This document shows, in pieces, positions 45,901 to 63,288 of a DNA stretch of 64,000 bases. Under the pieces are notes generated by a model that searched no databases, was not told the origin of the DNA, and saw only the letters and a list, made by a program, of their open reading frames with translations. The translations under genes were made by a program, and so were the position numbers. This stretch comes from a virus: the IMG/VR virus record IMGVR_UViG_3300039008_000120, positions 1 to 64,000 of that record. One strand, 5' to 3'. Within the stretch, counting starts at the first letter, position 1. Every line of letters begins with the position of its first letter.

Positions 45901-45912
45901 ATATAATATTCC

Positions 45913-46191
45913 TTATTTTTTTGAAAAATATTTAATGTTAATAATCTTATTAAAAAATAATTCACTTTTTCTAAACCTTCCTATATCTACCAATTCATCA
46001 TATAATTCAATCAACTCACCTATACTACATTTAGTTGAATATGCATATATTCCCATATCGTTCTTAGTTGCATAATTTAATGCATAATATGATCGAACAC
46101 TGGGATCAAATTTTAAAATTATACAATCTGCATTTTCTTCATCCCACATATTAAATGTAGGATAAACGTTAGTAATATAACTATACCCCAT
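45913..46191 (-). CDS. hypothetical protein
   Basis: 92-aa track ORF. Confidence 0.55.
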   Translation of the reverse strand: MGYSYITNVYPTFNMWDEENADCIILKFDPSVRSYYALNYATKNDMGIYAYSTKCSIGELIELYDELVDIGRFRKSELFFNKIINIKYFSKK

Positions 46192-46211
46192 TATAAACCA
46201 CCACTAAATTA

Positions 46212-47498
46212 TTATATATTAATACAAATAAATTCTTCATTATTATTACTTTTAAATATTGACATCATCTCATTTATTTCATAATCCATTTCATCTCGTG
46301 ATATATATGGTATATCTTTAATTAAATCATTAAGCACCAAAGAATATTTATCAATTATATCATCATCATAAATATTCTTTATCTTTAAATAATCCTTTTT
46401 TTCTATATCAGATATATTTAATATAAATGATAAAAATACATTATCGGAACTATCTTTAATAAAAGATGCATCGTGGATATCAAAGTCAGAATTACTTAAA
46501 TCAACTGGTTTAATAACAGTGAAATCATCAGAAACACTATTTCTAGGATTTTCTGATACAATATGGATAACCGTATCAGATAGAGGAATATCAACATCTT
46601 TTTGACTTTTAAATAATGCTGATGCAACATTTGCATCCAAATTTGCAACAAGATGTTGTTGTAATGGTTTAATATCGTTTTCTCTAACAATGGTATTATT
46701 AATATCTATCCAAATATTCCATAATTTAATTTCAGTTTCATTTAATTGGATTGGATTCGGTAAATATATATTATCATTACCATCAGAATATAATGTTGAT
46801 ACAACACCGCTTAAACTATCTAGTTTATCATTCAGTAAATACATATTCAATATATTTACTGGATTTAAATATTTAAACATGTATTCATTTAAAAAATCTT
46901 GTGGATTATATGATTCTTTCTTTAATATATTTAATCGTAATATTTTTTCTATTTGTCCGTGGTTTTGAAATGAAGAAAGCATCCCTGTCATTGCATAATC
47001 TGAAATGTTGGCTTTATTGTTCATTAATGAATTTAATATTGATGAACACATTGAATCCGTTTGGGGTACACTGTTTATAGCTAACATCGTATCATCTAAT
47101 AATGATTTATAATCCGATATATTATCATTACTAAAAAAACCTTCTGATAATATTGGATTAAAAAAACCATCCATCATGGCAGACTCATCTTTTTTCGTTT
47201 TTATTTTAGGTGTTAACTTCTTTATAGTATGAACACCAACTTGACCATTTATAACGTGAATATCATCTAAATATTCACTTATTTTCTTATTTTTCCGATT
47301 ATCTATTATGTTTTTAAACTGCTCTGCTGGATTGTTATCAATATTGGTTTTTGCTTTATTTTTACCTTTTTTATTATTATATGGGTTTGAATAGTATCGT
47401 TGTTGAAAAAAGCTAACCTTTCCTGATTTTTTATTTACTCGCATAACATTTTTTCTAACAGTAGGCAACCCTTTTTTTGATGACCTGTTATTAACCAT
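46212..47498 (-). CDS. hypothetical protein
   Basis: 428-aa track ORF with no TAG and no recognised family. Confidence 0.6.
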   Translation of the reverse strand: MVNNRSSKKGLPTVRKNVMRVNKKSGKVSFFQQRYYSNPYNNKKGKNKAKTNIDNNPAEQFKNIIDNRKNKKISEYLDDIHVINGQVGVHTIKKLTPKIKTKKDESAMMDGFFNPILSEGFFSNDNISDYKSLLDDTMLAINSVPQTDSMCSSILNSLMNNKANISDYAMTGMLSSFQNHGQIEKILRLNILKKESYNPQDFLNEYMFKYLNPVNILNMYLLNDKLDSLSGVVSTLYSDGNDNIYLPNPIQLNETEIKLWNIWIDINNTIVRENDIKPLQQHLVANLDANVASALFKSQKDVDIPLSDTVIHIVSENPRNSVSDDFTVIKPVDLSNSDFDIHDASFIKDSSDNVFLSFILNISDIEKKDYLKIKNIYDDDIIDKYSLVLNDLIKDIPYISRDEMDYEINEMMSIFKSNNNEEFICINI

Positions 47499-47510
47499 AT
47501 ATTCAATACC

Positions 47511-48002
47511 TTATTTTTTTAAATCGTCTATATTATTTATTTCATATATTTTCATATTATAACAATTACTTTTTACTTTGTAATTATTACTAATATCGAT
47601 TTCACCTTTTTTCATATAAATCGAATTATCATAATATTCCGATTTATACATATAACCTAAAATCCAACCACAACTAAAATTTTTTAAAACACGAGCAAAA
47701 ACATAAATATCACATTTCTGATCTATATTATGAGAACTAACTGAACAATCATAATGCATTTGGGGTTCAACGCCAGTTTGTTTTGTCTTAACATCGATTT
47801 TAAGACCATTATGTAATATTAAATCATAATCCTATGTATTTTCAATTGTTGCACCTAGATATGAAGCTACAATATATTCACCCAAAAAACCTGCTAAATT
47901 TCCAGCCCCTTTCAAAATAGAATTGTTCAATGTACCAAGTGATACTGCTTTTTTTCTTGCTGATATTAACATATAATCAGTTATTTCAACTTTTTTAATC
48001 AT
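47511..48002 (-). CDS. PD-(D/E)XK nuclease-fold protein (163 aa, 1 in-frame TAG)
   Basis: Track ORF 47511..47759 extended through TAG at 47832-34 to the ATG at 48002. GEYIVASYL ... DYDLIL ... KIDVKTK. Confidence 0.5.
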
Positions 48003-48033
48003 ATCAAAACCCTATTAATTTATTAATAATAAA

Positions 48034-48062
48034 AAAGCCTATCAATTTAACTAATAGGCTTT
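48034..48062 (-). terminator. rho-independent terminator
   Basis: AAAGCCTAT pairs with ATAGGCTTT, with a T-run on the minus strand after the 48089 gene end. Confidence 0.65.
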
Positions 48063-48088
48063 AACTATAATACATTATTATACATAAA

Positions 48089-48757
48089 TCAATCTAAAAG
48101 ATAATTATATCCTCTAATATAATTATCACCATTATTTGCATTAAATGTTAAGTGTATAAACTTTAAATTATCTTTTTTATACCAAAATAAATTAAAAATA
48201 TTAAAATTATCATCATTTATAGCAGTATAACCAAAATTCTTTAAATTATGTATTTTAGAATAATTCTTAACCTCAGCTAGAAATGATCGTGATATTAATG
48301 ATGAAATATCTTTTTGTTTAGCAGATTTGCTTATATTATTAATAAACTCCTTATCAACCATAATACTAATTATATTATTAGCATTATTACTTGTTAATAA
48401 TATATTATTACGATAATCTAAAGAACTATCCTCAATAATATTCGTATACTTATCTATTTTTTTAAATATATAATATGCACCCATATCAGATTTATCATTA
48501 ACTTTCATCAATATAGGCATTATTTTTCCATTAAATGATATTAATGGAATGGTTATGTTATAATCAAAATCATTGTTTGTTTTTATAGTGTAACTATATA
48601 AATCAACACTAATCACATCAACATCATTAATTTTTAATTGCTTGGTACAATAACTAATATTATCTGTTATAATATCTAATCCACTATCTCGTAATAAATC
48701 CCGACCAAAATTTACTTTCTGGATATTAACTAAACAGCTACTACGACCTGATGACAT
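48089..48757 (-). CDS. hypothetical protein
   Basis: 222-aa track ORF. Confidence 0.6.
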   Translation of the reverse strand: MSSGRSSCLVNIQKVNFGRDLLRDSGLDIITDNISYCTKQLKINDVDVISVDLYSYTIKTNNDFDYNITIPLISFNGKIMPILMKVNDKSDMGAYYIFKKIDKYTNIIEDSSLDYRNNILLTSNNANNIISIMVDKEFINNISKSAKQKDISSLISRSFLAEVKNYSKIHNLKNFGYTAINDDNFNIFNLFWYKKDNLKFIHLTFNANNGDNYIRGYNYLLD

Positions 48758-48820
48758 AAAAACCCCTTGTTTATTAAGTTTACAAATATATAATTGGCAT
48801 TAATTAATGCCAATTATATA

Positions 48821-49576
48821 TTAAAATGGAATATCGTCATCATCAACAGGTGGACTGTTAAATTCATTTCTAATATTATTCATCATACCATCGTTAAATT
48901 GACCGGGACTAGTGTTCGGTTGTCCATTATTATTCTGGTTGTATTGACCACTAGAATTGTTATATGGTTGATTCTGTTGATATTTTCCATTATTATTCTG
49001 ATTATATTGATTGTTACCGTTATTATTATTCTGTTTATGCTTACCTACCATTTGATACCAATAATCATATCGCACAAGTGCATTTTGTGCAATTGTAGGA
49101 TATTGACTAAGAAGATTTTTTAAATATGCATACATACCTGTAAATTCAGTTTCATCAAGTGAACAACTGCACTGAAATTTATTACCATTATCATCAGAAC
49201 CACTGGTATATGAAAACATATACCAAATCTTGTTATTATTTGTATCTATGTTTTTCCGTAATGTTAAATATTTCTGTTTTTTTGGATTTTTAAAATTTGC
49301 ATATGCACTATCTGAACCAGCTTCAGTCTTTAATAATGCTCCCATCTTGGAAACAAGATCAACTAAACCTGCAAAATTTGGAAACCAATATGCATTTTGG
49401 TTATTATTCCAATTAGCCCCTTCATTCGCACTTTGTCTTGTCCCAAAGCGGAACTGCAACATAGGAGTTGTACTATTATATTGTACCGATATAGAAGATT
49501 CCATTATCATTATACACTTTGTGCGATATATTTCGATTTTATTCAAAATATTCTGCATGTTAACATTTTGTGCCAT
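48821..49576 (-). CDS. putative ssDNA-binding protein with a bacterial SSB-type C-terminal tip
   Basis: 251-aa track ORF. A long Q/N/G-rich linker ends in DDDDIPF, the canonical SSB-Ct motif. The N-terminal domain is not a recognisable OB-fold SSB. Confidence 0.5.
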   Translation of the reverse strand: MAQNVNMQNILNKIEIYRTKCIMIMESSISVQYNSTTPMLQFRFGTRQSANEGANWNNNQNAYWFPNFAGLVDLVSKMGALLKTEAGSDSAYANFKNPKKQKYLTLRKNIDTNNNKIWYMFSYTSGSDDNGNKFQCSCSLDETEFTGMYAYLKNLLSQYPTIAQNALVRYDYWYQMVGKHKQNNNNGNNQYNQNNNGKYQQNQPYNNSSGQYNQNNNGQPNTSPGQFNDGMMNNIRNEFNSPPVDDDDIPF

Positions 49577-49578
49577 TT

Positions 49579-49881
49579 TTATTGCTCCTCATATAATTTT
49601 AATAACTTTAAATATTTATCTTTTTGTAAACCATCTACAGTTACAAAAATTAATACATCATCCTCATTAATATAAATTATTGTTGATGATGTATTAAAAA
49701 ACACCACTGGGATAAGTGATGGTGTATATAACAATGAAACATCCATTCCATCGCTTGTTGTATCTATAGCTGGTACTGGTATCAATTTATATGGGTTTTT
49801 TATTGCATGGCTATTTTTTTTTATACCCATATGCTCACCGATATAACTGATACCATTTTTTAGTACAAATTCACATATCAT
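49579..49881 (-). CDS. hypothetical protein (small tandem paralogue 1)
   Basis: 100-aa track ORF. N-terminal F-V-L-K-N-G-x-S-Y-I-G-E pattern is shared with the next two genes. Confidence 0.5.
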   Translation of the reverse strand: MICEFVLKNGISYIGEHMGIKKNSHAIKNPYKLIPVPAIDTTSDGMDVSLLYTPSLIPVVFFNTSSTIIYINEDDVLIFVTVDGLQKDKYLKLLKLYEEQ

Positions 49882-49895
49882 ATCAATATCTATCT

Positions 49896-50279
49896 TTATG
49901 GTGAAACGATTGAAATATTACTACCTTCTTTTATTTTCTCTTTTTCATACATACTATACATTTTTTTGTATAGTTCAATAAATTCATTACCAGAAACAAC
50001 TGCAATATAATTAATATCACTATCATTAAATTTAAACGCACTTTCTAATGAATAGTAATTAATGATATTCATTTTAGGTACCATTACAAAATTAGTACTA
50101 CCACCTATATCGTTTGGAACTGGCATAGGTGTTAAATCAACCCTCATTACCTTTTCAAAATTAACAATACCATCTTTTTCTGAAAATGAACTAAATTCAC
50201 CTATGTAACTGGTACCTTGAGCAATAAATTCTACGACCTGATGTTTAGTATAATTATACTTCATTTGATTCCCTTTCAT
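49896..50279 (-). CDS. hypothetical protein (small tandem paralogue 2)
   Basis: 127-aa track ORF (the start may instead be the ATG at 50264). VVEFIAQGTSYIGEF. Confidence 0.5.
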   Translation of the reverse strand: MKGNQMKYNYTKHQVVEFIAQGTSYIGEFSSFSEKDGIVNFEKVMRVDLTPMPVPNDIGGSTNFVMVPKMNIINYYSLESAFKFNDSDINYIAVVSGNEFIELYKKMYSMYEKEKIKEGSNISIVSP

Positions 50280-50745
50280 TATCTTTAAGATTTAACTGAT
50301 GTACATTAAAAATATCATTCATGGTTGTATAAATATATTCAATGTAATCTTCAAATGTTTTCTTAATATCCAACACATTTGATGAATTGTCAATGTTTTT
50401 ATCTTTATTATCTTTATTATTATCTTTATTATTATCATATAGTGGTACAAATAAAAACATATCAATATTCAAATATGTAATGTGTTTATCATTATAATTT
50501 GGATATATTGTTGATGCTGGCAATGTTAAAACGTTGCCATCTACCGCTTGATATTTACCAGTTATAATCGCATCCATTGTTCCGGCCGGATCACTATTGA
50601 ATTTATTCATTGATATAATAGCTTTATTTAATACTATTGTATTACCTTTTACATCTTCTAAATATCCATAAATTTCCGCACCATTATTAAAATTTACTAA
50701 TTTAATAATAGTGCCTTTATATAAATCTAAATTAAAAAAAAACAT
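50254..50745 (-). CDS. hypothetical protein (small tandem paralogue 3)
   Basis: 163-aa track ORF. IIKLVNFNNGAEIYGYL. NNKDNNKDNKDKN low-complexity insert. Confidence 0.5.
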   Translation of the reverse strand: MFFFNLDLYKGTIIKLVNFNNGAEIYGYLEDVKGNTIVLNKAIISMNKFNSDPAGTMDAIITGKYQAVDGNVLTLPASTIYPNYNDKHITYLNIDMFLFVPLYDNNKDNNKDNKDKNIDNSSNVLDIKKTFEDYIEYIYTTMNDIFNVHQLNLKDNERESNEV

Positions 50746-50778
50746 TAGTATAATCCCCCATATTATATTTTTATATAA

Positions 50779-52659
50779 TTACCATATTACATTTAACTTA
50801 AAATCATAAGAATATATACTATAATTATGACTTTTAGATACAAGATTAATTTTCCTCGATGAACGTTTACGTTTAAATTTATTTGAATCATGATTTTTAT
50901 TAGTTATATTTGTTAATACATTATTTCCTGATTCAAATAGAGATAGAATATCTTCATCTTCAACCGGTTCAATATTATTTTCTAAGTCTTCGTCGGTGAT
51001 ATCCTCTAATATATCAGACATTACATCATTCGGAAATAGTTTATTAAGAATAAATTCATCTTTAATGTTCATTCCCAACATTTGTTCTAACTGGGTAAAC
51101 ATTGTAACAAATTTTGACGACTTATCTAAATCTGTTTCTTTTCGTTCACTCATTGGAACAAATTCAGGTATATTAACATTTAAATATTTAATGTCTAAAT
51201 CTTTATAATTAACACCTAACTACTTTTCCATCTAAAACGTTAATATATTATTTAACATTACTTGATAATGGCGAATTTTCATTGAATAAACATTATCATG
51301 TAGTGCCAACATGCTATTATTCTGATATGTTTTGGCATTACTTGATTTTCTATAATGTAAAGGAATACCCATAGTATGATATACCTTATCCTACCAGTAA
51401 TCAATGTCATCCAGTAGTGGCTTGTATTCAGATTTTAATGTGTCTATTTTTAAATTTTCACCCTCAGTTGGAACAATCAAATTTGAATCTATGAGATTTT
51501 TTACAATATCAAAACTCATTTGATCTGTTGTTTCATCAAAATTCATTGCTGATTTCGATTTTACTAAATTTCGATATAACATAAGTGTGTTTGCAATGTC
51601 TTCATCTTCAATTTTTTCTAAATCCAATTTCCAAATGTGAGTTGTTTTAGATTTCGATAATCTCTCTATTAATAATGACAACTCTAACAGCTCGATAACT
51701 TTTAAATAATTTATAACTTTGTCAACTTGAGATTTTCCAATTACACCTTTTTCAGCAATGAAAAACATGTTCTCGGATTTTAATTCTGTACCATCTTCGA
51801 TTTTAAATATACTAATATTCTTATTGGTTATTTTTTTTAAATGATCATCTTCATCTATTGTTTTAAACATAGTGGTTGATGAATTACCTGATGATTCAAG
51901 TAAATCATTACTAATTTTTGTTGAATTTATTGTAGTGTTACCATTTGAAGTTTCCTTAAACACTACCTCATCAAGGCTATAAAAACTAACATCTGAATAT
52001 GTCTTAACGTCATCAAAATAAAAAATTCCACACCCATACCGCAAAATACTGTTTACTAAATTATACAATGAAAGTTTAATATTATTTCTCTTTAATAAAT
52101 TTCCAATCGCTAGTGATATTTCTTTGTGATGTGAATCAACTTTTTCAACGTTGTTGTTATAAATAAGCTGATCAACCTCTATATTTGGAACATTGATATC
52201 ATCGATAATATCAGTAGAATCGGATGTAGTACTATCGTTTATATATCTAGTATCTATTTTTTTCTCCAAAACTTTATACTCACCGAATAAATTAACCTCA
52301 ATCTTTCTTTTATTTGATGATGATGTATATATAATAGATGATGCTAACATATCTATTAAATATTCAATTTCTGGAAAACGATCTAAATATAAATTAACTC
52401 TATTAATTAATGATAATTTAGAATCAAAGCCACCATTAACTGTAACAATACCTAACCTATTAAATAAATCAGTGCTAACATTATTAATAAATTCATTCGA
52501 TTCATTTAACACATTATATGCACTACTTCGTGCAGTTGGTAACGACTTTGATATTAAATTATCAAGCTCCCCAGTTTTAACTAATTCTTTACCCTAAGAC
52601 ACCCCATTACTTTTTTTCTCAAAGTTAAGTGAATGTCGTTTTTTTGTAAAATTTATCAT
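50779..52659 (-). CDS. portal protein (626 aa, 4 in-frame TAG)
   Basis: One frame from the ATG at 52659 to the stop at 50779 joins track ORFs 51391..52512 and 50779..51153. TAG at 52594, 51391, 51232 and 51220. DMLASSIIYTS and DDIDYW*DKVYHTMGIPLHYR resemble T4 gp20 segments as I recall them. Acidic C-terminal tail. Confidence 0.7.
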
Positions 52660-52700
52660 TTTTTTTTGACCTTATCGTTAAAAACTCATATTTTATTCAA

Positions 52701-53144
52701 TTAATTTTGGTTTTTGTCATAAACACTAATATATCTATCATACATTTCTGCATAATTTTCAACCATTTCATCTATATGATTGAAAATATCATGTTTTTCA
52801 AAGAAAAATTGAAATAAAATACCAATAAAAAAACGTAGATCATTAGAAAATTCTTTAAAAAAGTCTTCTTCACCAAAGATCATTGCCAATATTTGATTTT
52901 TGTTAAGTTTTAATGAAGTACGAACACGTAATCGACTTTCTTTTTTTCCAATAAAATCAATAATAGTGGCTAAAAATAACAATATATCCTTTTTACAAAA
53001 ACGCCTATTTTCTAAATCCAAGCTGTGATAATCTTTTAAATATTTTTCAAAAATACCAGCATCTACCAAACATAGCATTTTTGAAAAGTTATCAATCATG
53101 TCAGTAATTTCGGTATCTGTAAAGTTTATTGATACTTTAGACAT
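52701..53144 (-). CDS. hypothetical protein
   Basis: 147-aa track ORF. Confidence 0.55.
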   Translation of the reverse strand: MSKVSINFTDTEITDMIDNFSKMLCLVDAGIFEKYLKDYHSLDLENRRFCKKDILLFLATIIDFIGKKESRLRVRTSLKLNKNQILAMIFGEEDFFKEFSNDLRFFIGILFQFFFEKHDIFNHIDEMVENYAEMYDRYISVYDKNQN

Positions 53145-53183
53145 ATTTTACCCTCTCTATTTTACTAATAACATATCATTTTT

Positions 53184-54086
53184 TTACATTACATTAATAT
53201 TATTTTTTAACAAAAATTGATGTAATAATATATCCATTGATAGGCGTTGTTGTTTAGTAAACGTATTATTATTAAATATATCAATTAAATATGTATTATT
53301 TAATATATCTTTTTCCTCAATTTTATCATTAAAATCGGGCATATGTTTAATGATAAAATCTAAATTATATGTATTATGTATGTCATATATTTTATTTAAA
53401 AAAGCAATTACTTTACTTTTTGTTAATAATTGTTTAATATTATCAATATTATCACCATTTAACAACAAATAATAATAATACTGACTTATGCTGTTCATAT
53501 TTAATTTGTTTAAATTAAAAACATTTTTAAAATCATTTAAATAATTGGGATTATTTTTAAAATAAAACTAATAGAATTTTTTATTTTTTTGACGTTTTAA
53601 TAATACATTACTTTTAATTGATGCTAATACTAAATCTTTATCATTAGCTACAGTTAATATATTATCTACATCAACTGAGGTTTTCTCAGAAATATATCTT
53701 AAAATATAACCAATTTTAAAATCAGCCTCACCTGTCAAATAGAATGTCAACCGGTTTTTAAATTGTGAATCGATTTTATGTATTCGATTTATATATACTT
53801 TAAATTTATTATTTTTATTAAAACTATTTAAATTACTAATACTATGATTTTCTTTTGAGGTGACTCGATTACCTTTATATTCTGGAAATAATCGAGTCAT
53901 CCGACGATTTAAACCATTATCAATAACATTAATAAATATTGTATCTTTGTTAATACTTTCAATAAATGATATAAAATCATTTAATTTTTTAACTGGATTT
54001 TTACTAAATAAAAAAACCGAGTTAACATCAATTATAACAATTTTAGACGACTAAAACATTTTTTTATTTAATTTATCAGCTATCAT
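53184..54086 (-). CDS. FEN / 5'-3' exonuclease (T4 RNase H-like) paralogue (300 aa, 2 in-frame TAG)
   Basis: ATG at 54086 with an AAGGA RBS. TAG at 54051 and 53568 join unannotated sequence, track ORF 53568..53900 and track ORF 53184..53498. IIDVNS, PEYKGNR, GEADFKIGY, ANDKDL and NGDNIDNI motifs. Confidence 0.65.
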
Positions 54087-54095
54087 TTTTAATCC

Positions 54096-54308
54096 TTATT
54101 TAACAATGGTTGATATTCTTTTTTGCTTTTTTTTAACACGACGGCTTGACGTAAACTCTTTAAATTTTTTTCGTTCTTCCCTTGACATCATCACATTACA
54201 TTTATAATCCTTAAGAACACTTTCGCTTTCGACTTTTCTTCTAAATCTCAATAAAAGTGATTCAAATGGTTCTTTGGAACCTCTTTTTACACATACATTT
54301 GTACTCAT
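54096..54308 (-). CDS. rpsU: ribosomal protein bS21 homologue
   Basis: 70-aa track ORF with a GGAG RBS. V.VKRGSKEPFESLLLRFRRKVESESVLKDYK...REERKKFKE fits the S21 pattern (compare E. coli [32 protein letters not shown]). Confidence 0.7.
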   Translation of the reverse strand: MSTNVCVKRGSKEPFESLLLRFRRKVESESVLKDYKCNVMMSREERKKFKEFTSSRRVKKKQKRISTIVK

Positions 54309-54322
54309 TATTTGTTATCTCC

Positions 54323-55318
54323 TTACTTTAATAGCCTATATTTACATATTGATGAATATTGACAATATGTACAATTATAACTCAGGTTAGTTTTTTTACA
54401 TTCATCCTTATTAACAAAATTAAATTTATCATTATATTTATTTTTTATCATATCAATATTAATATCATTTTTATCTACTTTATGTAATGGTAATATTATA
54501 TTATTAATATCATCAAACATTTCATCAATAAACTTTGAAAAATCCGCAGAATTCAATAAAACATTTGTATTGTCACCATCACGCAATTTAAAAATAATAC
54601 CTTTTTTTATTGCAGATGATGTTAACACTTCTTTTAAAAACTGAATAATTGATGTTTTATCCGGGTTATCAATTATATTTTTATTTGTATTGAAATTATA
54701 TTGAATAATATTATAACAATAAAAATATAATTGATGTATTGCAAAAATATCAATAGTCTTACCAGTTTTAAAATCGGCAAGATATAAATATTTACAGATT
54801 TCATTCTCCATTTTCCAAAAAATTAAGTCAATTGAACCATATAATAATAATGAATCTTCATTATTTAATTTTACAATATTATTAAATGTAAACTCTGATT
54901 CAATATTGTTGTCTTCAATTTTATAAGCAATATCACTAATATATTGCTTAAATAATTTAAAAGCATGGAAAAATACAACTTCATTATTTTTTATAAACTC
55001 TATCAATTCAGTTGTATTTTTAGTTCTATCCATACTTTTAACCATATATGAACCACTATTGAAATCTTTAGCTAAAAAATTTAATGTAATATGTTCATGT
55101 AAAATATCAAGATTATCTTTGATATTTTTTATTTCATATATTTCCCATCTATTTTTATGATATAGTTCTATAAATAAATGAGTTAAAACCCCTAATACTA
55201 AAGGATATGATTGTGGCATATCGGGTACTGGGGGTTTTAGTATATACGAATAAATGTATTTAAGTATACATTTTTTACTAACACTATATTTTGAAAACGA
55301 TAATAATAAATCCATCAT
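54323..55318 (-). CDS. Cas4/RecB-like PD-(D/E)XK exonuclease with a C-terminal Cys cluster
   Basis: 331-aa track ORF. N-terminal SFSKYS..KKC, GSIDLIF ... LADFKTGK, C-terminal C-x8-C-x2-C-x5-C. Confidence 0.6.
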   Translation of the reverse strand: MMDLLLSFSKYSVSKKCILKYIYSYILKPPVPDMPQSYPLVLGVLTHLFIELYHKNRWEIYEIKNIKDNLDILHEHITLNFLAKDFNSGSYMVKSMDRTKNTTELIEFIKNNEVVFFHAFKLFKQYISDIAYKIEDNNIESEFTFNNIVKLNNEDSLLLYGSIDLIFWKMENEICKYLYLADFKTGKTIDIFAIHQLYFYCYNIIQYNFNTNKNIIDNPDKTSIIQFLKEVLTSSAIKKGIIFKLRDGDNTNVLLNSADFSKFIDEMFDDINNIILPLHKVDKNDINIDMIKNKYNDKFNFVNKDECKKTNLSYNCTYCQYSSICKYRLLK

Positions 55319-55330
55319 ACCAACGTATAT

Positions 55331-55813
55331 TTATATTTTTTTTAAATTAGCCACAAAAACAGAAAAATCCGTATTATTAAATAACCATGAATTTTGTACA
55401 CTTTCATCTAATAATATATTTAAAGGATTAAGTTTATCATTTTCAATTTTAAATTTATAAAATTTAATACACCTTTTCAATAAATAAATTATATTATTCT
55501 TAATTGATTTTGGATAATCAATGTTTTCAGGAATTTGTATAATATCATCAATAATGTTAATATTGTTGATATAAATATTATTTAATTTATTTTTATATGC
55601 GTTTAACAATGCTAATTCAAAGCCGGTTTTTTTATCAAATTTATCGACCTTGTTACACAATGAATAACCAATATACACACGATTATCACTTTTAAATCGA
55701 CATGCTAATACAATACCGATTTTATTGTTGTTTTTTTTATCTTTAACATAATTAAAAATAATGTTGTTAATTTTAAAATCAACTTCAACTGGAATAGTAT
55801 TACCTTTTTTCAT
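55331..55813 (-). CDS. hypothetical protein
   Basis: Track ORF 55331..55864 trimmed to the ATG at 55813 with a GGAGG RBS. Confidence 0.55.
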   Translation of the reverse strand: MKKGNTIPVEVDFKINNIIFNYVKDKKNNNKIGIVLACRFKSDNRVYIGYSLCNKVDKFDKKTGFELALLNAYKNKLNNIYINNINIIDDIIQIPENIDYPKSIKNNIIYLLKRCIKFYKFKIENDKLNPLNILLDESVQNSWLFNNTDFSVFVANLKKI

Positions 55814-55945
55814 GATACCTCCATTTATATTTTTTATATTATCAATAAATATATATTTTTTCAAAAAATGTCAACTAAAATTTTATCAATCATAATTAAC
55901 AAAGAATTTATATGTTGATATAAAAAATTAATAAATTCATTTATA

Positions 55946-56236
55946 TTATAATAAAAATTGTTTTTCATAGTCGCTAATATTTTCATATATATCACCTTCT
56001 AATTTCATTAACATTTTTATATCTAAATAATTAACATTTTCAACATCTTTAAAGGTTCCAATTACCTTATATGAACCTTTTTGTGGTGCTGATAAAACAA
56101 TTGACATATTTAATGTCTTTAATGTTGTTATATTTTTAGGCATTTTAATACCAGATGGTACATTAAATGCTTTTATTATTGGCATACGTTTTTTATTTCC
56201 ATTATTTTGAAAAAAAATTACAACTCTTTTATTCAT
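55946..56236 (-). CDS. hypothetical protein
   Basis: 96-aa track ORF. Confidence 0.5.
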   Translation of the reverse strand: MNKRVVIFFQNNGNKKRMPIIKAFNVPSGIKMPKNITTLKTLNMSIVLSAPQKGSYKVIGTFKDVENVNYLDIKMLMKLEGDIYENISDYEKQFLL

Positions 56237-56483
56237 CTGTTTTTACCTTAATATTAGATGTTACATCTTCTGATAATATAATATCTTTATTATCACTCAC
56301 TTTACATTCACATCCATTATTTAAATAATAATAACTATCACAGTTACTACATTTAAACAGTGTAACAATACTCCCATCTCCTTGTGAAAATATTGTTTTA
56401 CAATTATGACATACAACTACTTCAATATTATTATTTACTTCAATTTCTAACATTTTTTTACAATTGGGACACCTATCATTCAT
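56229..56483 (-). CDS. double zinc-ribbon protein
   Basis: 84-aa track ORF. CPNC..CHNC..CSNC..C.C. Confidence 0.5.
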   Translation of the reverse strand: MNDRCPNCKKMLEIEVNNNIEVVVCHNCKTIFSQGDGSIVTLFKCSNCDSYYYLNNGCECKVSDNKDIILSEDVTSNIKVKTDE

Positions 56484-57106
56484 ACTTTATCATATCCATT
56501 TTTAATATATTCTGATATTCGGTTTATATCTATATCATTTTTAACAATACTAAAATCAAAGTTTTTTGGTGGTTCTATATCTATAGATTTAAATAAATAT
56601 TCTAAACTAACTTTAGGATGTCTACAAATATCACCAATATTTAATACTACAAAATCATAATATTTTCCATTGTTAATTTTAGATAATGAACTAAAAATAT
56701 CAATATATGCTGTTTTAATTCTGTTCGTTGGATTTGATAAAAACGTGTTAACAGGATTGTTTTTAATATGTAAATTTTTTATTGTACTTACAATTTGACT
56801 AGGCCAAAATCTAGTAGTTATTATTGTATATACTTTATCAAAACCTGAAAATATTAATCTATTATACCAATCATCTAATCTAGGTAGATTGCTACCATGT
56901 GGGTAGCTTTGTCTGACTAAAAGCTTATCTATTTTTTCAGCAATAACCCAAGATCTAAATCCATTATCATCATACATAACATTTTGGAACTCTTGTGTAT
57001 GCTTATCGGTACCACGGATTTGTTTATCCGCTGATAATATAAATTTACTAACGGCTCGACAACCAGTACTTTCACCAGTACCATATACTAAGTATGCAGA
57101 TTTCAT
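56480..57106 (-). CDS. putative sulfotransferase-like protein (weak call)
   Basis: 208-aa track ORF, ATGA-coupled to the APS kinase gene. The N-terminal YGTGESTGCRA loop and TRFWPSQIVS segment loosely resemble the 5'-PSB and 3'-PB motifs. Confidence 0.3.
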   Translation of the reverse strand: MKSAYLVYGTGESTGCRAVSKFILSADKQIRGTDKHTQEFQNVMYDDNGFRSWVIAEKIDKLLVRQSYPHGSNLPRLDDWYNRLIFSGFDKVYTIITTRFWPSQIVSTIKNLHIKNNPVNTFLSNPTNRIKTAYIDIFSSLSKINNGKYYDFVVLNIGDICRHPKVSLEYLFKSIDIEPPKNFDFSIVKNDIDINRISEYIKNGYDKV

Positions 57107-57642
57107 ATGATAAACCCTTTTTTATAATCAATAACACGATCTAAGCATAATTTTAAAACTATATATTGTAAACATGAATATATATCATGTAAACCTGTAT
57201 CAACTGTCAAATTTGGGTTAATTGGTTTTTCATATGGATCATTAACACCACTTTGATTAGTTGGATTTTTATATAACCCTTTTGTATCTCTTTGTCTTAA
57301 AATAGAAATATCACAGTGACAATAAATTTCATAAAAAATATTCCCACTTTTTTCAATTAATTTTCGATTATTTAATCTGGTTTCATTATATGGTGCAATA
57401 GATGCAATAATGGTATTAATATTATGTTTATTAAGATAGTTTCCAAGTATACCAAGAGAAGATACGTTGATATCTCGGTCTTTCTTACTAAAGCCAAGGT
57501 TTTTATTATATAGCTGACGATATGTATTACCATCAATTAATTCAATAACTGAATCTTTTTTTAAATAATTATATAACTCTCTTGATAAAGTTGTCTTACC
57601 GGAATCAGTTAAACCGGTAAACTAAATTGTATAGTTTTTCAT
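57103..57642 (-). CDS. cysC: adenylyl-sulfate (APS) kinase (179 aa, 1 in-frame TAG)
   Basis: ATG at 57642 (AAGGGTG RBS) to TGA at 57103-05; absent from the track because of TAG at 57622-24. TI*FTGLTDSGKTT, LIDGNTYRQ..LGFSKKDR, IASIAPY, RDTKGLYK and NDPYEKP follow CysC motif order. Confidence 0.8.
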
Positions 57643-57762
57643 TAAAAAACACCCTTTCTATACTTAATAATATATCATAATTTTAACATTTTATAAATTA
57701 ATATAATATATAAGAATTTATATTATAAATATAACAAAAAATAAAAAAAATAGGTAAAAATA

Positions 57763-58521
57763 ATGGCTATTAGATTTGGATCAGATTCAGGATTCCAGAC
57801 TCGAACCGACTATCGAGTCAGTGAGTCCGAGCTTGATTGTGGAACAGTTGTACATCTATTCATCAGAAATATAGAGAAATCATATTCATTTACCGATGAA
57901 ATTTCTCTTTGTAATATAGGAGTTATTGGTTCATCAAATGATGAAGTTGATTAGTGTTTTGAAAATACTTCAATGAGAATTTCTGAAGAAGCCAGTCCAA
58001 AATATAAACCAACTGATGAAGCTCTTGGTGTTACAGCGGAAGAACTTGCACAACTTGCACAAAAAGGTATTGCATCAACAAAACTTGCATGTGTACCTCT
58101 TAAAATTAAATCAGTTACCGTTGAAGTTTCCGCTAGTTACAGGGAAATGGATCGTGACCCATCGGTTGAAGATATTTTACAATCAACAACATCCGATGGA
58201 CTGGTTACACTTGGTGAATTTTTTACATTACCAGATAATGGAACATACATTTTAACAAGTAAAAGCACAGATTCACCCATGGATAATTTCGGAACTAGAA
58301 GTATTACATATCGTAAAAAAATTGCATATCCAACTACACAGGCAAGGGATGTCTACCTAGGTGGAGTTGAACAATACTTTAGTGGTTCCGGTGGTGGTGA
58401 TTCCTTTAATAAGGACGAATCAACCGTTGAAAGAGAGGCACAGTTGAGACAAGGTGAGGTTCCAAGTCAAACCGTTTCCGTTACACGTTATGGTGTACCA
58501 GATGTAACATCAGCATTGTAA
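57763..58521 (+). CDS. hypothetical protein in a GC-richer, opposite-strand unit (252 aa, 1 in-frame TAG)
   Basis: Track ORFs 57763..57954 and 57973..58521 share a frame and are joined by TAG at 57952-54. Visibly higher GC and different codon choice than the neighbours. Has its own terminator. Confidence 0.55.
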
Positions 58522-58532
58522 TAAAAATAATT

Positions 58533-58558
58533 AAGGGGGACACATTAACGTCCCCCTT
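58533..58558. terminator. strong GC hairpin shared by convergent genes
   Basis: AAGGGGGA pairs with TCCCCCTT around a 10-nt loop. Confidence 0.75.
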
Positions 58559-59258
58559 ATATTTTCGAAAATAAATACTTTTTATTTTTAAAAATAAACA
58601 TCAATAAATAATCTTTTTTAATCATATAATCAGCGTCATCAAAATCATATGTATTATAAAAACAATCCAACAACGTACTATCAAACTCTAATATATTTTG
58701 ATTTAATAATTTAGGTGTTTTAATCTCAAACTTTAATGCAATATCTGATAAAATATTCCATTTAAAAATTTCATTTTTTGTGCATATATTATTTAAATAT
58801 ATATTATTATCTATATCATTATAAATAATTTCAATCGTTGATTCTTTATAAGAATCCATCAGATATTTTAAACGAAGATCTTTTTTAAGTTTATTTGTTA
58901 GTTTTATATTATTCTAACTCCCAAATTCTCTTGCGAAATAATATCGACCTGAACATCCATATTTACTTAAATAATATGTTTCTCCATAAATTTTTGGTTT
59001 AATATAATATTCTGTCCGTATTGGTAATTTATCTATTTCTATTTCATGGTATTGACCCACATATTTTAAATTAGGTCTACTTTTTGTAGTAATATTGTAT
59101 GTCTTAATTGATTGTAAATTTCCATTGGTATTGTATACAAATGATCCTTGTAGTTTTGTATGTGTAATATCACCAAGGGCAGTGGGATAATCAATAATAC
59201 AATTATCCCACTGCCCTCTATTTTTTTTACAAAAATCACTTACATACACATTTTTCAT
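58557..59258 (-). CDS. hypothetical protein (233 aa, 1 in-frame TAG)
   Basis: Track ORFs 58914..59258 and 58557..58859 share a frame and are joined through TAG at 58914-16. Confidence 0.5.
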
Positions 59259-59262
59259 AATA

Positions 59263-59823
59263 TTATTTTGGTGGTATAATATTGGATAAACTTTTAAGCA
59301 ATATTTTTAAATTACTCATAACAAGTTTTATATCATCAATATTTACATCCGTTTTATTATTTATGTTTTTCTTCATATCTAATATTTGATTATATAATAA
59401 TTTAACATGTAAATCAAAATTATTCAAACTGGTTATATCGTCATCACCAAACTTATCAATATTATTAACGATAATTGATCTTACATTTAAATAATCATCA
59501 ACAATATTAGTATAAAGTTCTATATATATATTAATTTTATTTTTAATCATTAATATATCAGTATTGCTAGTTTTAGTGTTTATATCTGCTTTAATTTTTT
59601 CAAACTTTTTTGATACTATTATAATTGTATCTTGTTCGGCTTTTTTAAATTTATGCAAATTAGTGAATATAATTCTATTGACATTTTCATAACTATTAAG
59701 TAAATATGTTGTCGAACCTACAGTTATCGCAGTATCAGAAACTACATCTGTATTTTTAATAATATCACAACCATAACAAATAATACTCATGACCATTAAC
59801 ACATAAAAAATTTTTAATTTCAT
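59263..59823 (-). CDS. membrane-anchored or secreted coiled-coil protein
   Basis: 186-aa track ORF. The N-terminal MKLKIFYVLMVMSIICYGC is signal- or anchor-like. The rest looks helical. Confidence 0.5.
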   Translation of the reverse strand: MKLKIFYVLMVMSIICYGCDIIKNTDVVSDTAITVGSTTYLLNSYENVNRIIFTNLHKFKKAEQDTIIIVSKKFEKIKADINTKTSNTDILMIKNKINIYIELYTNIVDDYLNVRSIIVNNIDKFGDDDITSLNNFDLHVKLLYNQILDMKKNINNKTDVNIDDIKLVMSNLKILLKSLSNIIPPK

Positions 59824-59849
59824 TTTTATTTAACCCTTAGTTTTTTGTA

Positions 59850-60449
59850 TTATTCTTGTAATAATTGAACAGTTTTATTTTCATATTGGGCTTTTTCATT
59901 TATATATTTAATTATTGCCTAATATGATGTCTCATATACATAACTGTGAAACTGAGACTTATTTTTATCATATTTATTTTTTGAAATTTTATCTAAAACG
60001 TCAACAACACAAGCAGTAAATGTATCTTGAAAATGTTGTGGATATAGCGTTTTAAATTTTTTAATAACGGATGACATTACGATTGTACTAAGGTTGATTA
60101 ACCTAGTTTGATAAAATATTACATATTGCTGTAAATTATCAAACAACTCATCTTTGGTACGGTTATCTGATATGTTTAAAAATTTTACTGGTGTATCATC
60201 TATTTCATTTAAAATATCAGAAATGTCATCATAATCTTGAAACTTTTTTAAATTTTCCTGAATCTATATTATAATATCATAATATTTAACAGCACGGGGA
60301 GAAATATGGCGAGGTGGTAAAACCATATGACTCTTTAATTTACCAGTATTTTCTAAATAATCCAAAGTAGACTCAATCAATGCCGGATCGATTTCTTTAT
60401 AATCTGTCCGTGATTGAGTTCTTGAATAATTATTTTCACGTTTCGCCAT
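59850..60449 (-). CDS. possible late-transcription sigma factor (T4 gp55-like; 199 aa, 2 in-frame TAG)
   Basis: ATG at 60449 (AAGGA RBS). TAG at 60264 and 59919 join track ORFs 60264..60449 and 59919..60146. YDKNKSQFHSYVYETSY*AIIKYINEK resembles gp55 [28 protein letters not shown] as I recall it. Confidence 0.3.
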
Positions 60450-60453
60450 TATA

Positions 60454-60888
60454 TTATCCTTGTGATTTTTTTACTGTGATAATTTTGATATACTCGTTTT
60501 TAAACTCAGTTTCAACTTCAACAGATAAATCTTGAATATCTTTTAATAATTCCTCATATTTATCTGATAGTTCAACTGCAATATCAAAAAAATGGCTATC
60601 TGTTATTTGATTACTATCATTAATAATTATTTTAGGACGAATTGTTAAATCTTTAAACTCACTATCATAATCAATTTCAATAACAACATCAACATCTTTC
60701 AAAGAAATAATGTCATTTACAATAATTTTTAACAATTCTATAACAGTATCATAGCTATCATCATCTGCTTTTTGGTTTAACTATTTAGATACTTTTGAAT
60801 TTACAACAATACTTTTATATAACTTTGTAAATTCAATAGTATCACTATCATTTCTTGACAAAGTAATGTAACTAATGTCTTCGGTCAT
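60454..60888 (-). CDS. hypothetical acidic protein (144 aa, 1 in-frame TAG)
   Basis: ATG at 60888 with a GGGGAGG RBS. TAG at 60781-83. Absorbs track ORF 60454..60735. Confidence 0.55.
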
Positions 60889-60938
60889 TTAAAATCCTCC
60901 CCTGTTAATATTATTATTATAATATATCATAATTTATA

Positions 60939-61709
60939 TTAAAACGAATCAACTATTTCATCGATTAGTTTTAGTTCTAATGCATCTTTAGCCATAATAT
61001 ATGATTCACCTTTCATAAAGGTGTCAATTGCTTCTTTTTTTGCACCAGTATTGTCTTTTAAAATTTGACTTAGGGTTTCTTGTAGTTGTGTCTAAAATTT
61101 AGCATAGTCCATGAGTTGGCTATATTTACCATGGGCACCGGCAGAAATAGAATGGATCATTAAAACTGAATTTTTTGTTGCTTTTTTGACTGCACCAGCG
61201 GAGCTTATTATAATTCCCATACTAGCGGCGATTCCAGAAACAATAGTAGTTACAGGATATTTATTCGACTTAATAGCATCATGAAAACGGAGACCTTCAA
61301 TAACACTACCACCGTTACTATTTATGATCACAGTTGGTGTTAGTGTCCCTTTTAATGATGGATAATCGTGTTCCATCGCATTGATGTTTTTGTTTATTCT
61401 TTTTAATTGATCAAGTGCCCGATTAATTGTATATTTTTCTACATAACCATCAAAAAATAATGTTGTGGCATTCAGCATTCGAACATCACCATAATCCATC
61501 TAATAATAATTTTCAGGTTGATCATCATCGGTATTTATGCTTTCACTACGGTCACTAAAATCAACATCATCTGGTGTTAATTTTGTGGATTCATTAAGTA
61601 ATTGATCAGTTGGAAAAAAAGGACTTTTATTTAATAAACCTTCTTCAACACTGGGCATTTTATTAACTTTTGTTTTATTATCAACAGCATTTTTATTTTT
61701 TTTTGACAT
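60939..61709 (-). CDS. ClpP-family (S14) serine protease (256 aa, 2 in-frame TAG)
   Basis: ATG at 61709 (AAGGT RBS). TAG at 61500 and 61092 join track ORFs 61500..61766 and 61092..61499 plus a 51-codon tail. INSNGGSV, GIAASMG (Ser) and LMIHSIS (His) motifs. Confidence 0.65.
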
Positions 61710-61722
61710 TGTATTTGTACCT

Positions 61723-63122: not shown

Positions 63123-63258
63123 TAATTTTTTCTCACTTTTAATATTATTTAATTAATTCAACTAATATTAAAAAATGAAAAAGTCAAATACTTTTTTCAT
63201 TTTTTTCCCCTGTTAATAATATTTAAATTTATTTATTTATAATTAATATAAATAATAT

Positions 63259-63288
63259 ATAAATAATAATATTTATATTATTATTTAT
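63259..63288. repeat. perfect 13-bp inverted repeat with a TTTA loop
   Basis: ATAAATAATAATA-TTTA-TATTATTATTTAT within an almost pure A/T intergenic region. Confidence 0.8.

What the first reader, a model, noticed from the sequence alone, without database searches (positions are those of the whole stretch)
54096..54308. Phage-encoded ribosomal protein bS21
A 70-aa ORF with a good RBS matches the S21 pattern: VKRGSKEPFESLLLRFRRKV...VLKDYK...REERKKFKE followed by a basic tail. Phage S21 genes have been reported in a minority of phages and are thought to bias translation initiation. Here the gene coexists with stop-codon recoding, a TrpRS-like gene, a CCA-adding enzyme and an RNA-repair-like HD-kinase, which points to a broad translation-takeover toolkit.
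Basis: partly seen in the sequence, partly recalled or inferred. Interest (0 to 1): 0.65.

Follow-up and report, generated by a model that had tools for sequence, protein, structure and literature searches.

The report
Divergent phage ribosomal protein bS21 gene
A 70-residue gene in an uncultured giant phage is a real but unusually divergent copy of bacterial ribosomal protein bS21; phages carrying bS21 are already well documented, so this is a new member of a known kind.

Summary
The ORF is real: 54096..54308 on the minus strand, 70 aa, ATG start, TAA stop, preceded by a strong Shine-Dalgarno (TAAGGAG). Its own match to the S21 profiles is sub-threshold (Pfam 19.2 vs 27 bits, E about 1e-3). 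Homology is nevertheless established by other routes:
- a 22-member family profile matches cellular-only bS21 by hhalign (86%, E 5e-6, N-terminal half only);
- relatives pass Pfam's cut-off;
- profile hits in the PDB are bS21 only;
- an AlphaFold model's top five PDB matches are all bS21.

The gene is a fixed core gene (nuclease - S21 - 300 aa - 147 aa - portal) in five further contigs of an uncultured clade of low-GC phages (most on 166-276 kb contigs). Recoding was measured in four loci.

Ribosome incorporation and a bias of initiation towards phage mRNAs are inferred, not shown.

Phage bS21 is well known (about 900 genomes), so novelty is modest.

More surprising is a side observation: TAG here aligns with Trp or Tyr, not Gln, next to a phage TrpRS-like gene.

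The parts
54096..54308 (-). CDS of the divergent bS21 homologue (70 aa, pI 10.5, 22 K+R; no in-frame TAG)
   Evidence: ORF. Pfam/NCBIfam/PHROG weak S21 hits. Family profile vs PDB hits bS21 only. hhalign vs cellular bS21 E=5.2e-6. AF2 model plus Foldseek. pI.
54319..54325 (-). Shine-Dalgarno TAAGGAG, 10 nt upstream of the ATG; its first three bases are the TAA stop of the upstream nuclease gene
   Evidence: Sequence. SD-like motifs also precede the orthologues in L007, L008 and L009. SD cores are enriched before 32/82 window genes vs 4% background.
54323..55318 (-). Upstream neighbour: PD-(D/E)XK (Cas4/RecB-like) nuclease with C-terminal Cys cluster; 14-nt gap to the S21 start
   Evidence: PF12705 E=1.3e-10. 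Conserved directly upstream of S21 in L007, L008, L009, L012 and L013.
53184..54086 (-). Downstream neighbour: 300-aa protein with 2 in-frame TAG, starting 9 nt after the S21 stop; distant paralogue of the 5'-3' exonuclease at 61723..62775
   Evidence: TAG read-through ORF. Called as one 300-aa gene in Logan assemblies. Conserved in relatives, with cross-hits to the exonuclease.
52701..53144 (-). Conserved 147-aa protein of unknown function between the S21 block and the portal gene
   Evidence: No Pfam/PHROG match.
50779..52659 (-). T4-type portal protein gene (626 aa, 4 in-frame TAG): marks the head-morphogenesis module that S21 is co-oriented with
   Evidence: PF07230 E=1e-9. 50-63% identical in L007, L008 and L009.
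42766..44058 (-). Context: CCA-adding/repair enzyme (nucleotidyltransferase head + RNA-binding + HD domains)
   Evidence: Pfam PF01743/PF12627/PF01966. NCBIfam best hit is multifunctional CCA addition/repair protein, 249 bits.
63487..64000 (+). Context: N-terminal 171 aa of a 338-aa divergent TrpRS-like class-Ib aminoacyl-tRNA synthetase (runs off the window)
   Evidence: PF00579 E=3.5e-17. Full length from L015: trpS 79.6 bits vs tyrS 54.7.

Best explanation
This is a phage-encoded, strongly diverged homologue of bacterial small-subunit ribosomal protein bS21. It is kept as a core gene of an uncultured clade of low-GC phages, most on 166-276 kb contigs, with T4-type head genes and a TAG-recoding signal. 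SHOWN: it is a conserved protein-coding gene. Its N-terminal half (residues 5-37) is homologous to bS21 residues 2-34. Its predicted three-helix shape is closest to bS21 in ribosome structures. It is packed in one co-oriented gene string (gaps of 14 and 9 nt, no terminator-like site) between a PD-(D/E)XK nuclease and a FEN-like protein, three genes upstream of the portal. It carries one of the strongest Shine-Dalgarno sequences in the window, and the phage's genes are generally SD-led. INFERRED: the protein is made during infection together with replication/recombination and head-assembly genes. It then binds the 30S platform at the bS21 site next to the 3' end of 16S rRNA (the anti-SD), replacing or supplementing host bS21. 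bS21 is needed for SD-dependent initiation, so this would sustain or bias initiation towards the phage's SD-led mRNAs when large amounts of structural protein are needed. The C-terminal basic helix is family-specific and invariant at R46, F49, K50, F52, R56, R57, K60, K63 and R64. In cellular bS21 this helix anchors the protein to 16S rRNA, so it is probably the part adapted to the host's rRNA or to a phage-specific function.
For: - Homology. The 13-member family profile hits 27/27 bS21 chains in the PDB, best E=1.7e-10. Core-only profiles still hit only S21, at E about 1e-3. hhalign of the 22-member family vs cellular-only bS21 gives 86% probability, E=5.2e-6. Relative P0009 links to the seed at E=3.2e-6 in 1.84 billion proteins and passes Pfam GA at 32.7 bits. 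11/13 family members hit PF01165, and several carry precomputed PF01165 hits or JGI's name 'ribosomal protein S21'.
- Structure. AF2 mean pLDDT 82.8 with helices 15-28, 31-39 and 43-69. The top 5 Foldseek PDB hits are all bS21, TM 0.49-0.60. The top 3 BFVD hits are phage S21.
- Maintenance. 16 invariant columns, and fixed synteny in L007, L008, L009, L012 and L013.
- Expression context. No terminator on its strand and a strong SD.
- Precedent. About 900 bS21-encoding phage genomes, commonly near portal, prohead protease, exonuclease and Clp protease genes; transcription with late genes; proposed substitution into host ribosomes (PMC9723584; PMC7162821).
Against: - The single sequence fails the curated cut-offs of Pfam and NCBIfam.
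- Only the N-terminal half aligns significantly with cellular bS21. MAFFT and HMMER disagree on the alignment of the C-terminal half.
- Foldseek E-values are non-significant, at 0.4 or higher, as expected for a 70-residue helical protein.
- The host is unknown, so no comparison with host bS21 or 16S rRNA was possible.
- No expression or ribosome-binding data exist for this protein.
- The absence of TAG in the gene carries no information: about 0.6 TAG would be expected in 70 codons at the 0.86% rate of TAG-containing genes.
Confidence: 0.65

Rival explanations
1. An S21-derived protein that no longer works in the ribosome. On this reading it is a small basic nucleic-acid-binding protein exapted for another phage function. 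Examples would be an internal head or DNA-condensing protein packaged near the portal, or an RNA chaperone or regulator acting off the ribosome.
For: The C-terminal half, which anchors cellular bS21 to 16S rRNA, is not significantly alignable to cellular bS21 and has its own invariant signature. The gene sits just upstream of head-morphogenesis genes. The sequence is sub-threshold for the curated S21 models. Chen et al. themselves raise packaging of phage bS21 in virions as a possibility.
Against: Length, charge, helix order and the best-conserved bS21 motif (E-x-F/L-E-x-x-L-x-R-F-R/K-R/K ... G-V/I-L) are retained. C-terminal regions of bS21 are reported as highly divergent even among genuine bacterial and phage bS21. 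Intermediate family members align collinearly with bS21 over 51 of the 55 Pfam model positions.
Confidence: 0.18
2. A genuine bS21 that acts only as a supply gene. It would top up a ribosomal protein that becomes limiting when host transcription is shut off, with no selectivity for phage mRNAs.
For: Nothing in the sequence demonstrates selectivity. Jumbo phages carry many host-like housekeeping genes; this window has CCA-adding enzyme, aaRS, ClpP and APS kinase.
Against: The protein is far diverged from any cellular bS21. The best single-sequence PDB E-value is 0.15, and only 12 representatives reach E<1e-3 among 1.84 billion proteins. That is not what a simple dosage copy of the host gene should look like. 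It has been conserved as a distinct family across a diverged clade.
Confidence: 0.12
3. Chance resemblance: a short lysine/arginine-rich helical phage protein that merely looks like S21.
For: Single-sequence scores are weak. A similarly weak Gag_p24_C hit appears. Foldseek E-values are not significant.
Against: Every significant profile hit is bS21 and nothing else. hhalign gives E=5.2e-6 against an alignment containing only cellular bS21. There is a transitive link through P0009, which passes Pfam GA. The alignments are collinear and almost end-to-end. Structure ranking puts five bS21 chains first among 350,542 PDB chains.
Confidence: 0.05

Closest known systems
Bacterial ribosomal protein bS21 (RpsU; Pfam PF01165, TIGR00030), e.g. 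E. coli bS21 in PDB 4YBB
   Same: Size (70 vs 71 aa) and very basic character. It has an N-terminal strand plus helix 1 with the E-P-F-E/D-x-x-L-R-R-F-K/R-R motif, then a G-V-L turn, a short helix 2, and a long basic C-terminal helix with an E-R-K-K/R motif. hhalign gives E=5.2e-6 over residues 5-37.
   Different: Below the curated thresholds. The F-Y-E-K-P-S/T motif is replaced by V-M-M-S-R-E. The C-terminal helix carries a family-specific invariant pattern (R46, F49, K50, F52, R56, R57, K60, K63, R64) not seen in cellular bS21. It is encoded by a phage, not in an rpsU-dnaG-rpoD-type cellular context.
Phage bS21 of the freshwater Bacteroidetes-infecting jumbo phages (Chen et al. 2022, PMC9723584)
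   Same: Jumbo myovirus-like phages, with bS21 embedded among portal, prohead protease and hypothetical genes within a few genes of head-assembly genes. The same proposed role applies: substitution into host ribosomes during late replication.
   Different: Their phages showed no stop-codon reassignment. Here TAG is read through. Their bS21 lies on the strand opposite to the structural genes; here it is co-oriented. Theirs resemble Flavobacteriia bS21, diverge in the N-terminal helix and keep an aromatic at the Tyr54 position. Here the N-terminal half is the conserved part, and the Tyr54-equivalent position (by HMMER's collinear alignment) is an invariant Arg (R56). This phage's genes are SD-led, unlike Bacteroidetes systems.
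rpS21 of huge phages (Al-Shayeb et al. 2020, PMC7162821) and the phage ribosomal proteins surveyed by Mizuno et al. 2019 (cited there)
   Same: A huge-phage genome that also carries an aaRS and tRNA-repair/modification genes, with S21 proposed to redirect initiation.
   Different: [quoted passage not shown] This protein has none: residue 5 aligns to E. coli residue 2. A few relatives have short N- or C-terminal extensions.

Membership tests
Ribosomal protein bS21 (PF01165 / TIGR00030) | The sequence itself scores above the curated family cut-off | tested here: not met
   PF01165 19.2 bits vs 27 (E=0.00099, only residues 7-36). TIGR00030 15.5 vs 28.95. This is a sensitivity threshold rather than a biological criterion. 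Relatives P0009 (32.7 bits) and P0014/P0022/P0037/P0040 (precomputed PF01165) do match.
Ribosomal protein bS21 (PF01165 / TIGR00030) | Statistically significant homology to bona fide bS21 by profile methods | tested here: met
   hhalign of 22 phage-family sequences vs 8 cellular bS21: 86% probability, E=5.2e-6, residues 5-37 vs 2-34. The 13-sequence profile vs PDB gives 27/27 hits as bS21, best 1.7e-10. Core-only profiles hit only S21, at E about 1e-3.
Ribosomal protein bS21 (PF01165 / TIGR00030) | Small (about 55-90 aa), strongly basic protein | tested here: met
   70 aa, pI 10.5, 22 K+R vs 8 D+E. Orthologues are 72-88 aa with pI 10.2-10.4.
Ribosomal protein bS21 (PF01165 / TIGR00030) | bS21 fold: extended N-terminus, helix 1, short helix 2, long C-terminal helix | tested here: inconclusive
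   The AF2 model (pLDDT 82.8) has helices 15-28, 31-39 and 43-69. The five best PDB matches are all bS21 (TM 0.49-0.60), but Foldseek E is 0.38 or higher. The model was built from an alignment that includes some S21-like sequences.
Ribosomal protein bS21 (PF01165 / TIGR00030) | C-terminal helix homologous to the 16S-rRNA-anchoring helix of cellular bS21 | tested here: inconclusive
   The significant hhalign region stops at residue 37. HMMER aligns EERKK to TERKR collinearly, while MAFFT proposes a 9-residue indel instead.
Ribosomal protein bS21 (PF01165 / TIGR00030) | Stoichiometric component of the 30S subunit next to the 3' end of 16S rRNA | not testable with these tools
   Needs biochemistry or cryo-EM on infected cells. 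The host is unknown.
Phage-encoded bS21 (Mizuno 2019; Al-Shayeb 2020; Chen 2022) | bS21 homologue encoded on a bona fide phage genome | tested here: met
   Portal_T4, Gp23 capsid, TerL and ClpP protease lie in the same window. The same protein occurs on contigs of 160 kb and up to 233 kb, and relatives on IMG/VR contigs of 180 and 276 kb.
Phage-encoded bS21 (Mizuno 2019; Al-Shayeb 2020; Chen 2022) | Located within about 10 genes of head-assembly / DNA-processing genes | tested here: met
   The portal is 3 genes downstream, a PD-(D/E)XK nuclease is adjacent, and ClpP and a 5'-3' exonuclease are about 11-12 genes upstream. Compare.
Bacteroidetes-type bS21 (anti-SD-sequestering; F. johnsoniae 7JIL) | Aromatic residue at the Tyr54 position that stacks on A1534 of the anti-SD | tested here: not met
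   F. johnsoniae sequence recovered. By the collinear HMMER alignments position 54 corresponds to invariant R56. The invariant F49 and F52 lie 4-7 residues earlier. Alignment of this half is uncertain. The phage's genes are SD-led, which also argues against a Bacteroidetes-style system.

The most novel reading that the evidence does not exclude
The bS21 homologue may be one component of an integrated, phage-specified translation system in a clade that reads TAG as tryptophan rather than glutamine. On this reading a phage TrpRS-like enzyme charges an as yet unfound tRNA(CUA), the CCA-adding/repair enzyme and HD-kinase maintain tRNAs, and the phage bS21 re-tunes the 30S platform. Together they would let the SD-led, TAG-containing late mRNAs be translated preferentially. 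If so, S21 replacement and code change would be two arms of one ribosome-reprogramming strategy.
Probability: 0.1. Interest if true: 0.8.

Novelty: new member of a known kind. Interest (0 to 1): 0.3.

Why it matters
Phage bS21 is the commonest ribosomal protein found in viruses, yet its mechanism is untested. This subfamily adds three things. First, curated S21 models miss it, so surveys based on Pfam or NCBIfam cut-offs will undercount phage S21. Second, it diverges in the opposite way from the published lake-phage clades: the N-terminal half is conserved and the C-terminal helix is remodelled. Third, it occurs in SD-using, TAG-recoded phages, a combination not found in the papers read here. 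The invariant C-terminal residues are concrete targets for testing how a phage bS21 docks on 16S rRNA. On its own, however, the finding is an expected kind of gene in a jumbo phage.

Tried and rejected
- Direct similarity to deposited phages: megablast of 10 kb, and tblastn of the portal and of S21 against INPHARED, gave no match. No cultured relative or host could be inferred.
- Host inference through the phage chemoreceptor gene in 185,579 species genomes found no relative.
- Scanning those genomes with the S21 family found one contig in a 'Candidatus Neomarinimicrobiota' MAG. It is a syntenic phage contig, probably mis-binned, so I do not treat it as a host assignment.
- Literature look-up of sample and MAG identifiers found nothing.
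- Selection test from near-identical assemblies: L001-L006 are 99.9-100% identical in DNA, with no differences in the ORF, so they are uninformative.
- The sigma-70 promoter scan is uninformative in 22-26% GC DNA: 81 hits vs 60 expected.
- Rfam: no family anywhere in the window, and no leader element.
- The MAFFT alignment suggesting a 9-residue insertion relative to cellular bS21 was rejected. The intermediate P0009 supports HMMER's collinear alignment: 'LFHMSKSERKR' vs 'EFYEKPTTERKR'.
- The weak Gag_p24_C Pfam hit is noise: it covers 23 residues and is not supported by the profiles.
- Suppressor tRNA search: none in the window, in L015, or in the relatives' loci, apart from a tRNA-Leu(TAA) in L011.
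- aaRS relatives in IMG/VR: none.
- Portal vs PDB: no hit.
- The ClpP TAG site aligns to Ile in cellular ClpP, so it does not discriminate.

Full report
**1. Observation**

The window is 22-30% GC. At 54096..54308 on the minus strand there is a 70-codon ORF with an ATG start and a TAA stop:

MSTNVCVKRGSKEPFESLLLRFRRKVESESVLKDYKCNVMMSREERKKFKEFTSSRRVKKKQKRISTIVK.

The motif TAAGGAG lies 10 nt upstream of the ATG. Its TAA is the stop codon of the preceding gene.

**2. Is it S21?**

On its own the protein matches S21 models only weakly:
- Pfam PF01165: E=0.00099, 19.2 bits against a gathering score of 27, covering residues 7-36 only.
- TIGR00030: 15.5 bits against 28.95.
- PHROG 'ribosomal protein S21': E=0.15.
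- phmmer against PDB sequences: bS21 chains dominate the list, with collinear alignments of residues 7-62 to 4-61, but E is about 0.15.

I therefore built up the family:
- A word-indexed search found one relative.
- An exhaustive HMMER search of 1.84 billion representatives found only 12 proteins at E<1e-3.
- A profile search of the 5.8-billion set found 33 clusters, several already named 'ribosomal protein S21' by JGI or carrying precomputed PF01165 hits.

The evidence for homology is as follows:
- 11 of 13 family members hit PF01165 individually, best 7.7e-14.
- P0009 links to the seed at E=3.2e-6 and passes Pfam's gathering score with 32.7 bits over model positions 5-55.
- The 13-sequence profile hits 27 PDB sequences, all bS21, best E=1.7e-10.
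- That profile might be driven by borderline members, so I repeated the search with core-only alignments of 6 and 22 sequences. Only S21 chains are hit, at E about 1e-3 to 6e-3.
- hhalign of the 22-sequence phage family against an alignment made solely of cellular bS21 gives 86% probability and E=5.2e-6. The aligned region is limited to window residues 5-37 against E. coli residues 2-34.
- An AlphaFold2 model (mean pLDDT 82.8) has an extended N-terminus and helices at 15-28, 31-39 and 43-69.
- The five best Foldseek matches in the PDB are all bS21: chloroplast, E. coli, Psychrobacter, Chlamydomonas chloroplast and mammalian mitoribosome. TM scores are 0.49-0.60, but E-values are non-significant.
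- The three best matches among viral predicted structures are annotated as phage S21.

Conclusion: this is a genuine but divergent bS21 homologue. The N-terminal half is recognisably bS21. The C-terminal basic helix is family-specific.

**3. Is it a maintained gene?**

Among 22 family members that are 37-60% identical to the window protein, 16 columns are invariant: E13, R21, F22, V26, K33, D34, K36, R46, F49, K50, F52, R56, R57, K60, K63 and R64.

The orthologues examined are 72-88 aa with pI above 10, and each is preceded by an SD-like motif.

The gene order is PD-(D/E)XK nuclease, S21, ~300-aa protein, ~147-aa protein, portal. This order is the same in:
- two IMG/VR contigs of 276 and 180 kb (L007, L008; neighbouring proteins 28-55% identical);
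- a 51-kb contig binned into a Neomarinimicrobiota MAG (L009);
- a 166-kb JGI contig (L012) and a 39-kb ENA contig (L013).

Near-identical assemblies of the same phage carry no informative substitutions.

**4. What replicon is this?**

The window encodes the following (TAG counts):
- a T4-type portal with 4 in-frame TAG;
- a gp23-type major capsid protein with 1 TAG, and a ClpP-type protease with 2 TAG;
- a large terminase with 5 TAG.

The same S21 protein occurs on contigs of 160 kb and up to 232,818 bp. Nothing in GenBank phages resembles it at the DNA level, or at the protein level for the portal or S21.

Treating TAG as sense raises coverage by long ORFs from 77% to 89% without increasing the ORF count. 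Recoding TGA does not behave this way. Many genes are restored to full length. The relatives behave the same way.

- CCA-adding/repair enzyme with HD domain at 42766..44058.
- HD(IG) plus polynucleotide-kinase-like protein at 38118..39281.
- A class-Ib aaRS starting at 63487. Completed from L015, it is 338 aa and scores best as TrpRS: 79.6 bits over nearly the whole trpS model, against 54.7 for tyrS over the catalytic domain only. Both are far below cut-off.

**5. Anatomy and likely mechanism**

The S21 gene is separated by 14 nt from the nuclease gene upstream and by 9 nt from the next gene downstream. No terminator-like site lies on its strand. No Rfam element is present anywhere in the window. 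It is therefore most probably co-transcribed within a long minus-strand gene string that runs into the head-assembly genes.

SD cores of at least 4 nt precede 32 of 82 genes, against 4% of random positions. Many more genes have partial AAGG/AGGT motifs. The S21 gene's TAAGGAG is among the strongest. The phage, and hence presumably its host, therefore uses SD-led initiation.

From established knowledge, as cited in PMC7162821 and PMC9723584, bS21 lies on the 30S platform against the 3' end of 16S rRNA and is important for initiation. The best-supported reading is that the phage protein occupies the bS21 site of host ribosomes and sustains or biases initiation on phage mRNAs during heavy late protein synthesis. 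This is inference by homology and precedent, not demonstrated.

Two differences from the best-studied phage bS21 clades (Chen et al. 2022) are worth recording:
- In those clades the N-terminal helix diverges from the host's and the C-terminal anchor retains the Bacteroidetes Tyr54 aromatic. Here the N-terminal half is the conserved part.
- By the collinear HMMER alignment, the Tyr54-equivalent position is an invariant arginine, R56. Two invariant phenylalanines (F49, F52) sit one to two helical turns earlier.

MAFFT proposes a different C-terminal alignment. I rejected it because the intermediate P0009 supports the collinear one. Even so, the C-terminal correspondence remains uncertain.

The gene contains no TAG. 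With about 0.6 expected in 70 codons, that says nothing about expression timing.

**6. Comparison with what is known, and novelty**

Phage-encoded bS21 is well established. Chen et al. analysed the context of bS21 in 900 published phage genomes. They found it commonly near prohead protease, capsid, portal, exonuclease and Clp protease genes. This case fits that pattern.

Al-Shayeb et al. reported rpS21 in huge phages alongside aaRS and tRNA-repair genes.

What is new here is limited:
- The subfamily falls below the curated S21 thresholds.
- It has a remodelled C-terminal helix.
- It occurs in a TAG-recoded, SD-using phage clade. Chen's clades showed no recoding, and the recoding survey of Borges et al. 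does not mention S21 or ribosomal proteins.

I class it as a new member of a known kind, with modest interest.

**7. Side observation: TAG appears to encode an aromatic residue (not part of the finding)**

Residues aligned to in-frame TAG codons are not glutamine. This holds for window genes against syntenic relatives and in the reverse direction. Of 60 aligned pairs, 23 are Trp, 15 Tyr, 5 Leu, 3 Phe and 1 Gln.

Summed BLOSUM62 scores favour Trp (243) over Tyr (136) and Phe (56). All other amino acids score negative.

Three portal TAG sites are Trp in the relatives that lack TAG there. In the APS-kinase gene the TAG aligns to the Trp of human PAPSS 'TVWLTGLSGAGKTT' and to Phe in another APS kinase. 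A ClpP site aligns to Ile and does not discriminate.

Together with a phage TrpRS-like enzyme, this suggests TAG->Trp. [quoted passage not shown] My literature searches found no report of TAG->Trp in phages.

No tRNA(CUA) was found in the about 74 kb of this phage that was available, nor in the relatives' loci. The reading therefore remains unproven. It deserves its own follow-up.

Noticed in passing
window-wide; e.g. portal 50779..52659 (codons 423, 476, 480), APS kinase 57103..57642 (codon 7), terminase 12103..13956: In-frame TAG codons align with Trp (23), Tyr (15), Leu (5), Phe (3) and Gln (1) in 60 aligned pairs with syntenic relatives. BLOSUM scoring favours Trp (243) over Tyr (136). The APS-kinase TAG sits at the Trp of the conserved 'W-L/F-T-G-L-S-G-x-G-K' motif. 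This suggests TAG->Trp (or another aromatic), not the TAG->Gln (code 15) described for phages.
   Followed up: partly
window 63487..64000 (+), complete in L015 8620..9636 (-): A 338-aa divergent class-Ib aminoacyl-tRNA synthetase with HLGH and KMSKS motifs. It scores best as TrpRS (79.6 bits, nearly full model) against TyrRS (54.7, catalytic domain only), far below the equivalog cut-offs. It could charge a TAG-decoding tRNA, but no tRNA was found in the window, L015 or the relatives' loci.
   Followed up: partly
window 31460..33418 (-): A phage-encoded methyl-accepting chemotaxis protein (dCache_1 + HAMP + MCPsignal, 652 aa, no TAG). This is an unusual auxiliary gene for a phage and implies a motile, chemotactic host. 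No close relative was found in 185,579 species genomes.
   Followed up: partly
window 42766..44058 (-) and 38118..39281 (-): A CCA-adding/repair enzyme with HD domain, and an HD(IG)+polynucleotide-kinase-like protein. They lie in a TAG-free block together with an SMC/SbcC-like ATPase (44125..45900) and large unannotated proteins (39410..41536, 46212..47498). This looks like a tRNA/RNA repair module.
   Followed up: partly
window 57103..57642 (-): An APS (adenylylsulfate) kinase gene in a phage (PF01583, E=5.9e-34), conserved in relatives L009 and L013. It is an auxiliary sulfur-metabolism gene, or possibly a kinase repurposed for another nucleotide substrate.
   Followed up: no
window 53184..54086 (-) vs 61723..62775 (-): The 300-aa protein just downstream of S21 has no Pfam or PHROG hit. 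It cross-matches the locus of the 5'-3' exonuclease (FEN-like) homologue in relatives (tblastn E about 3e-6 to 5e-6). It is therefore probably a diverged FEN/PIN-like paralogue.
   Followed up: partly
L009 (JAOZRH010000003.1, 51,475 bp): A contig deposited as part of a 'Candidatus Neomarinimicrobiota' MAG is a syntenic relative of this phage (portal 63% identical, same S21 neighbourhood, TAG-recoding signal). It is either mis-binned phage DNA or a weak host hint.
   Followed up: partly
window 1..64000: TAG-containing and TAG-free genes are interleaved in blocks. TAG-free blocks include 4051..12064, 38118..47498 and 54096..57106. TAG-containing genes include terminase, capsid, portal, putative tail genes at 15311..24177, and ClpP. 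This resembles the early/late code partition proposed for recoded phages.
   Followed up: no
L015 1..8633 (beyond the window's right end): Beyond the aaRS, the same phage encodes a family-9 glycosyltransferase, a 731-aa protein, rIIB, a dCTP deaminase/dUTPase, a deoxynucleotide monophosphate kinase and a PfkB-family kinase.
   Followed up: no
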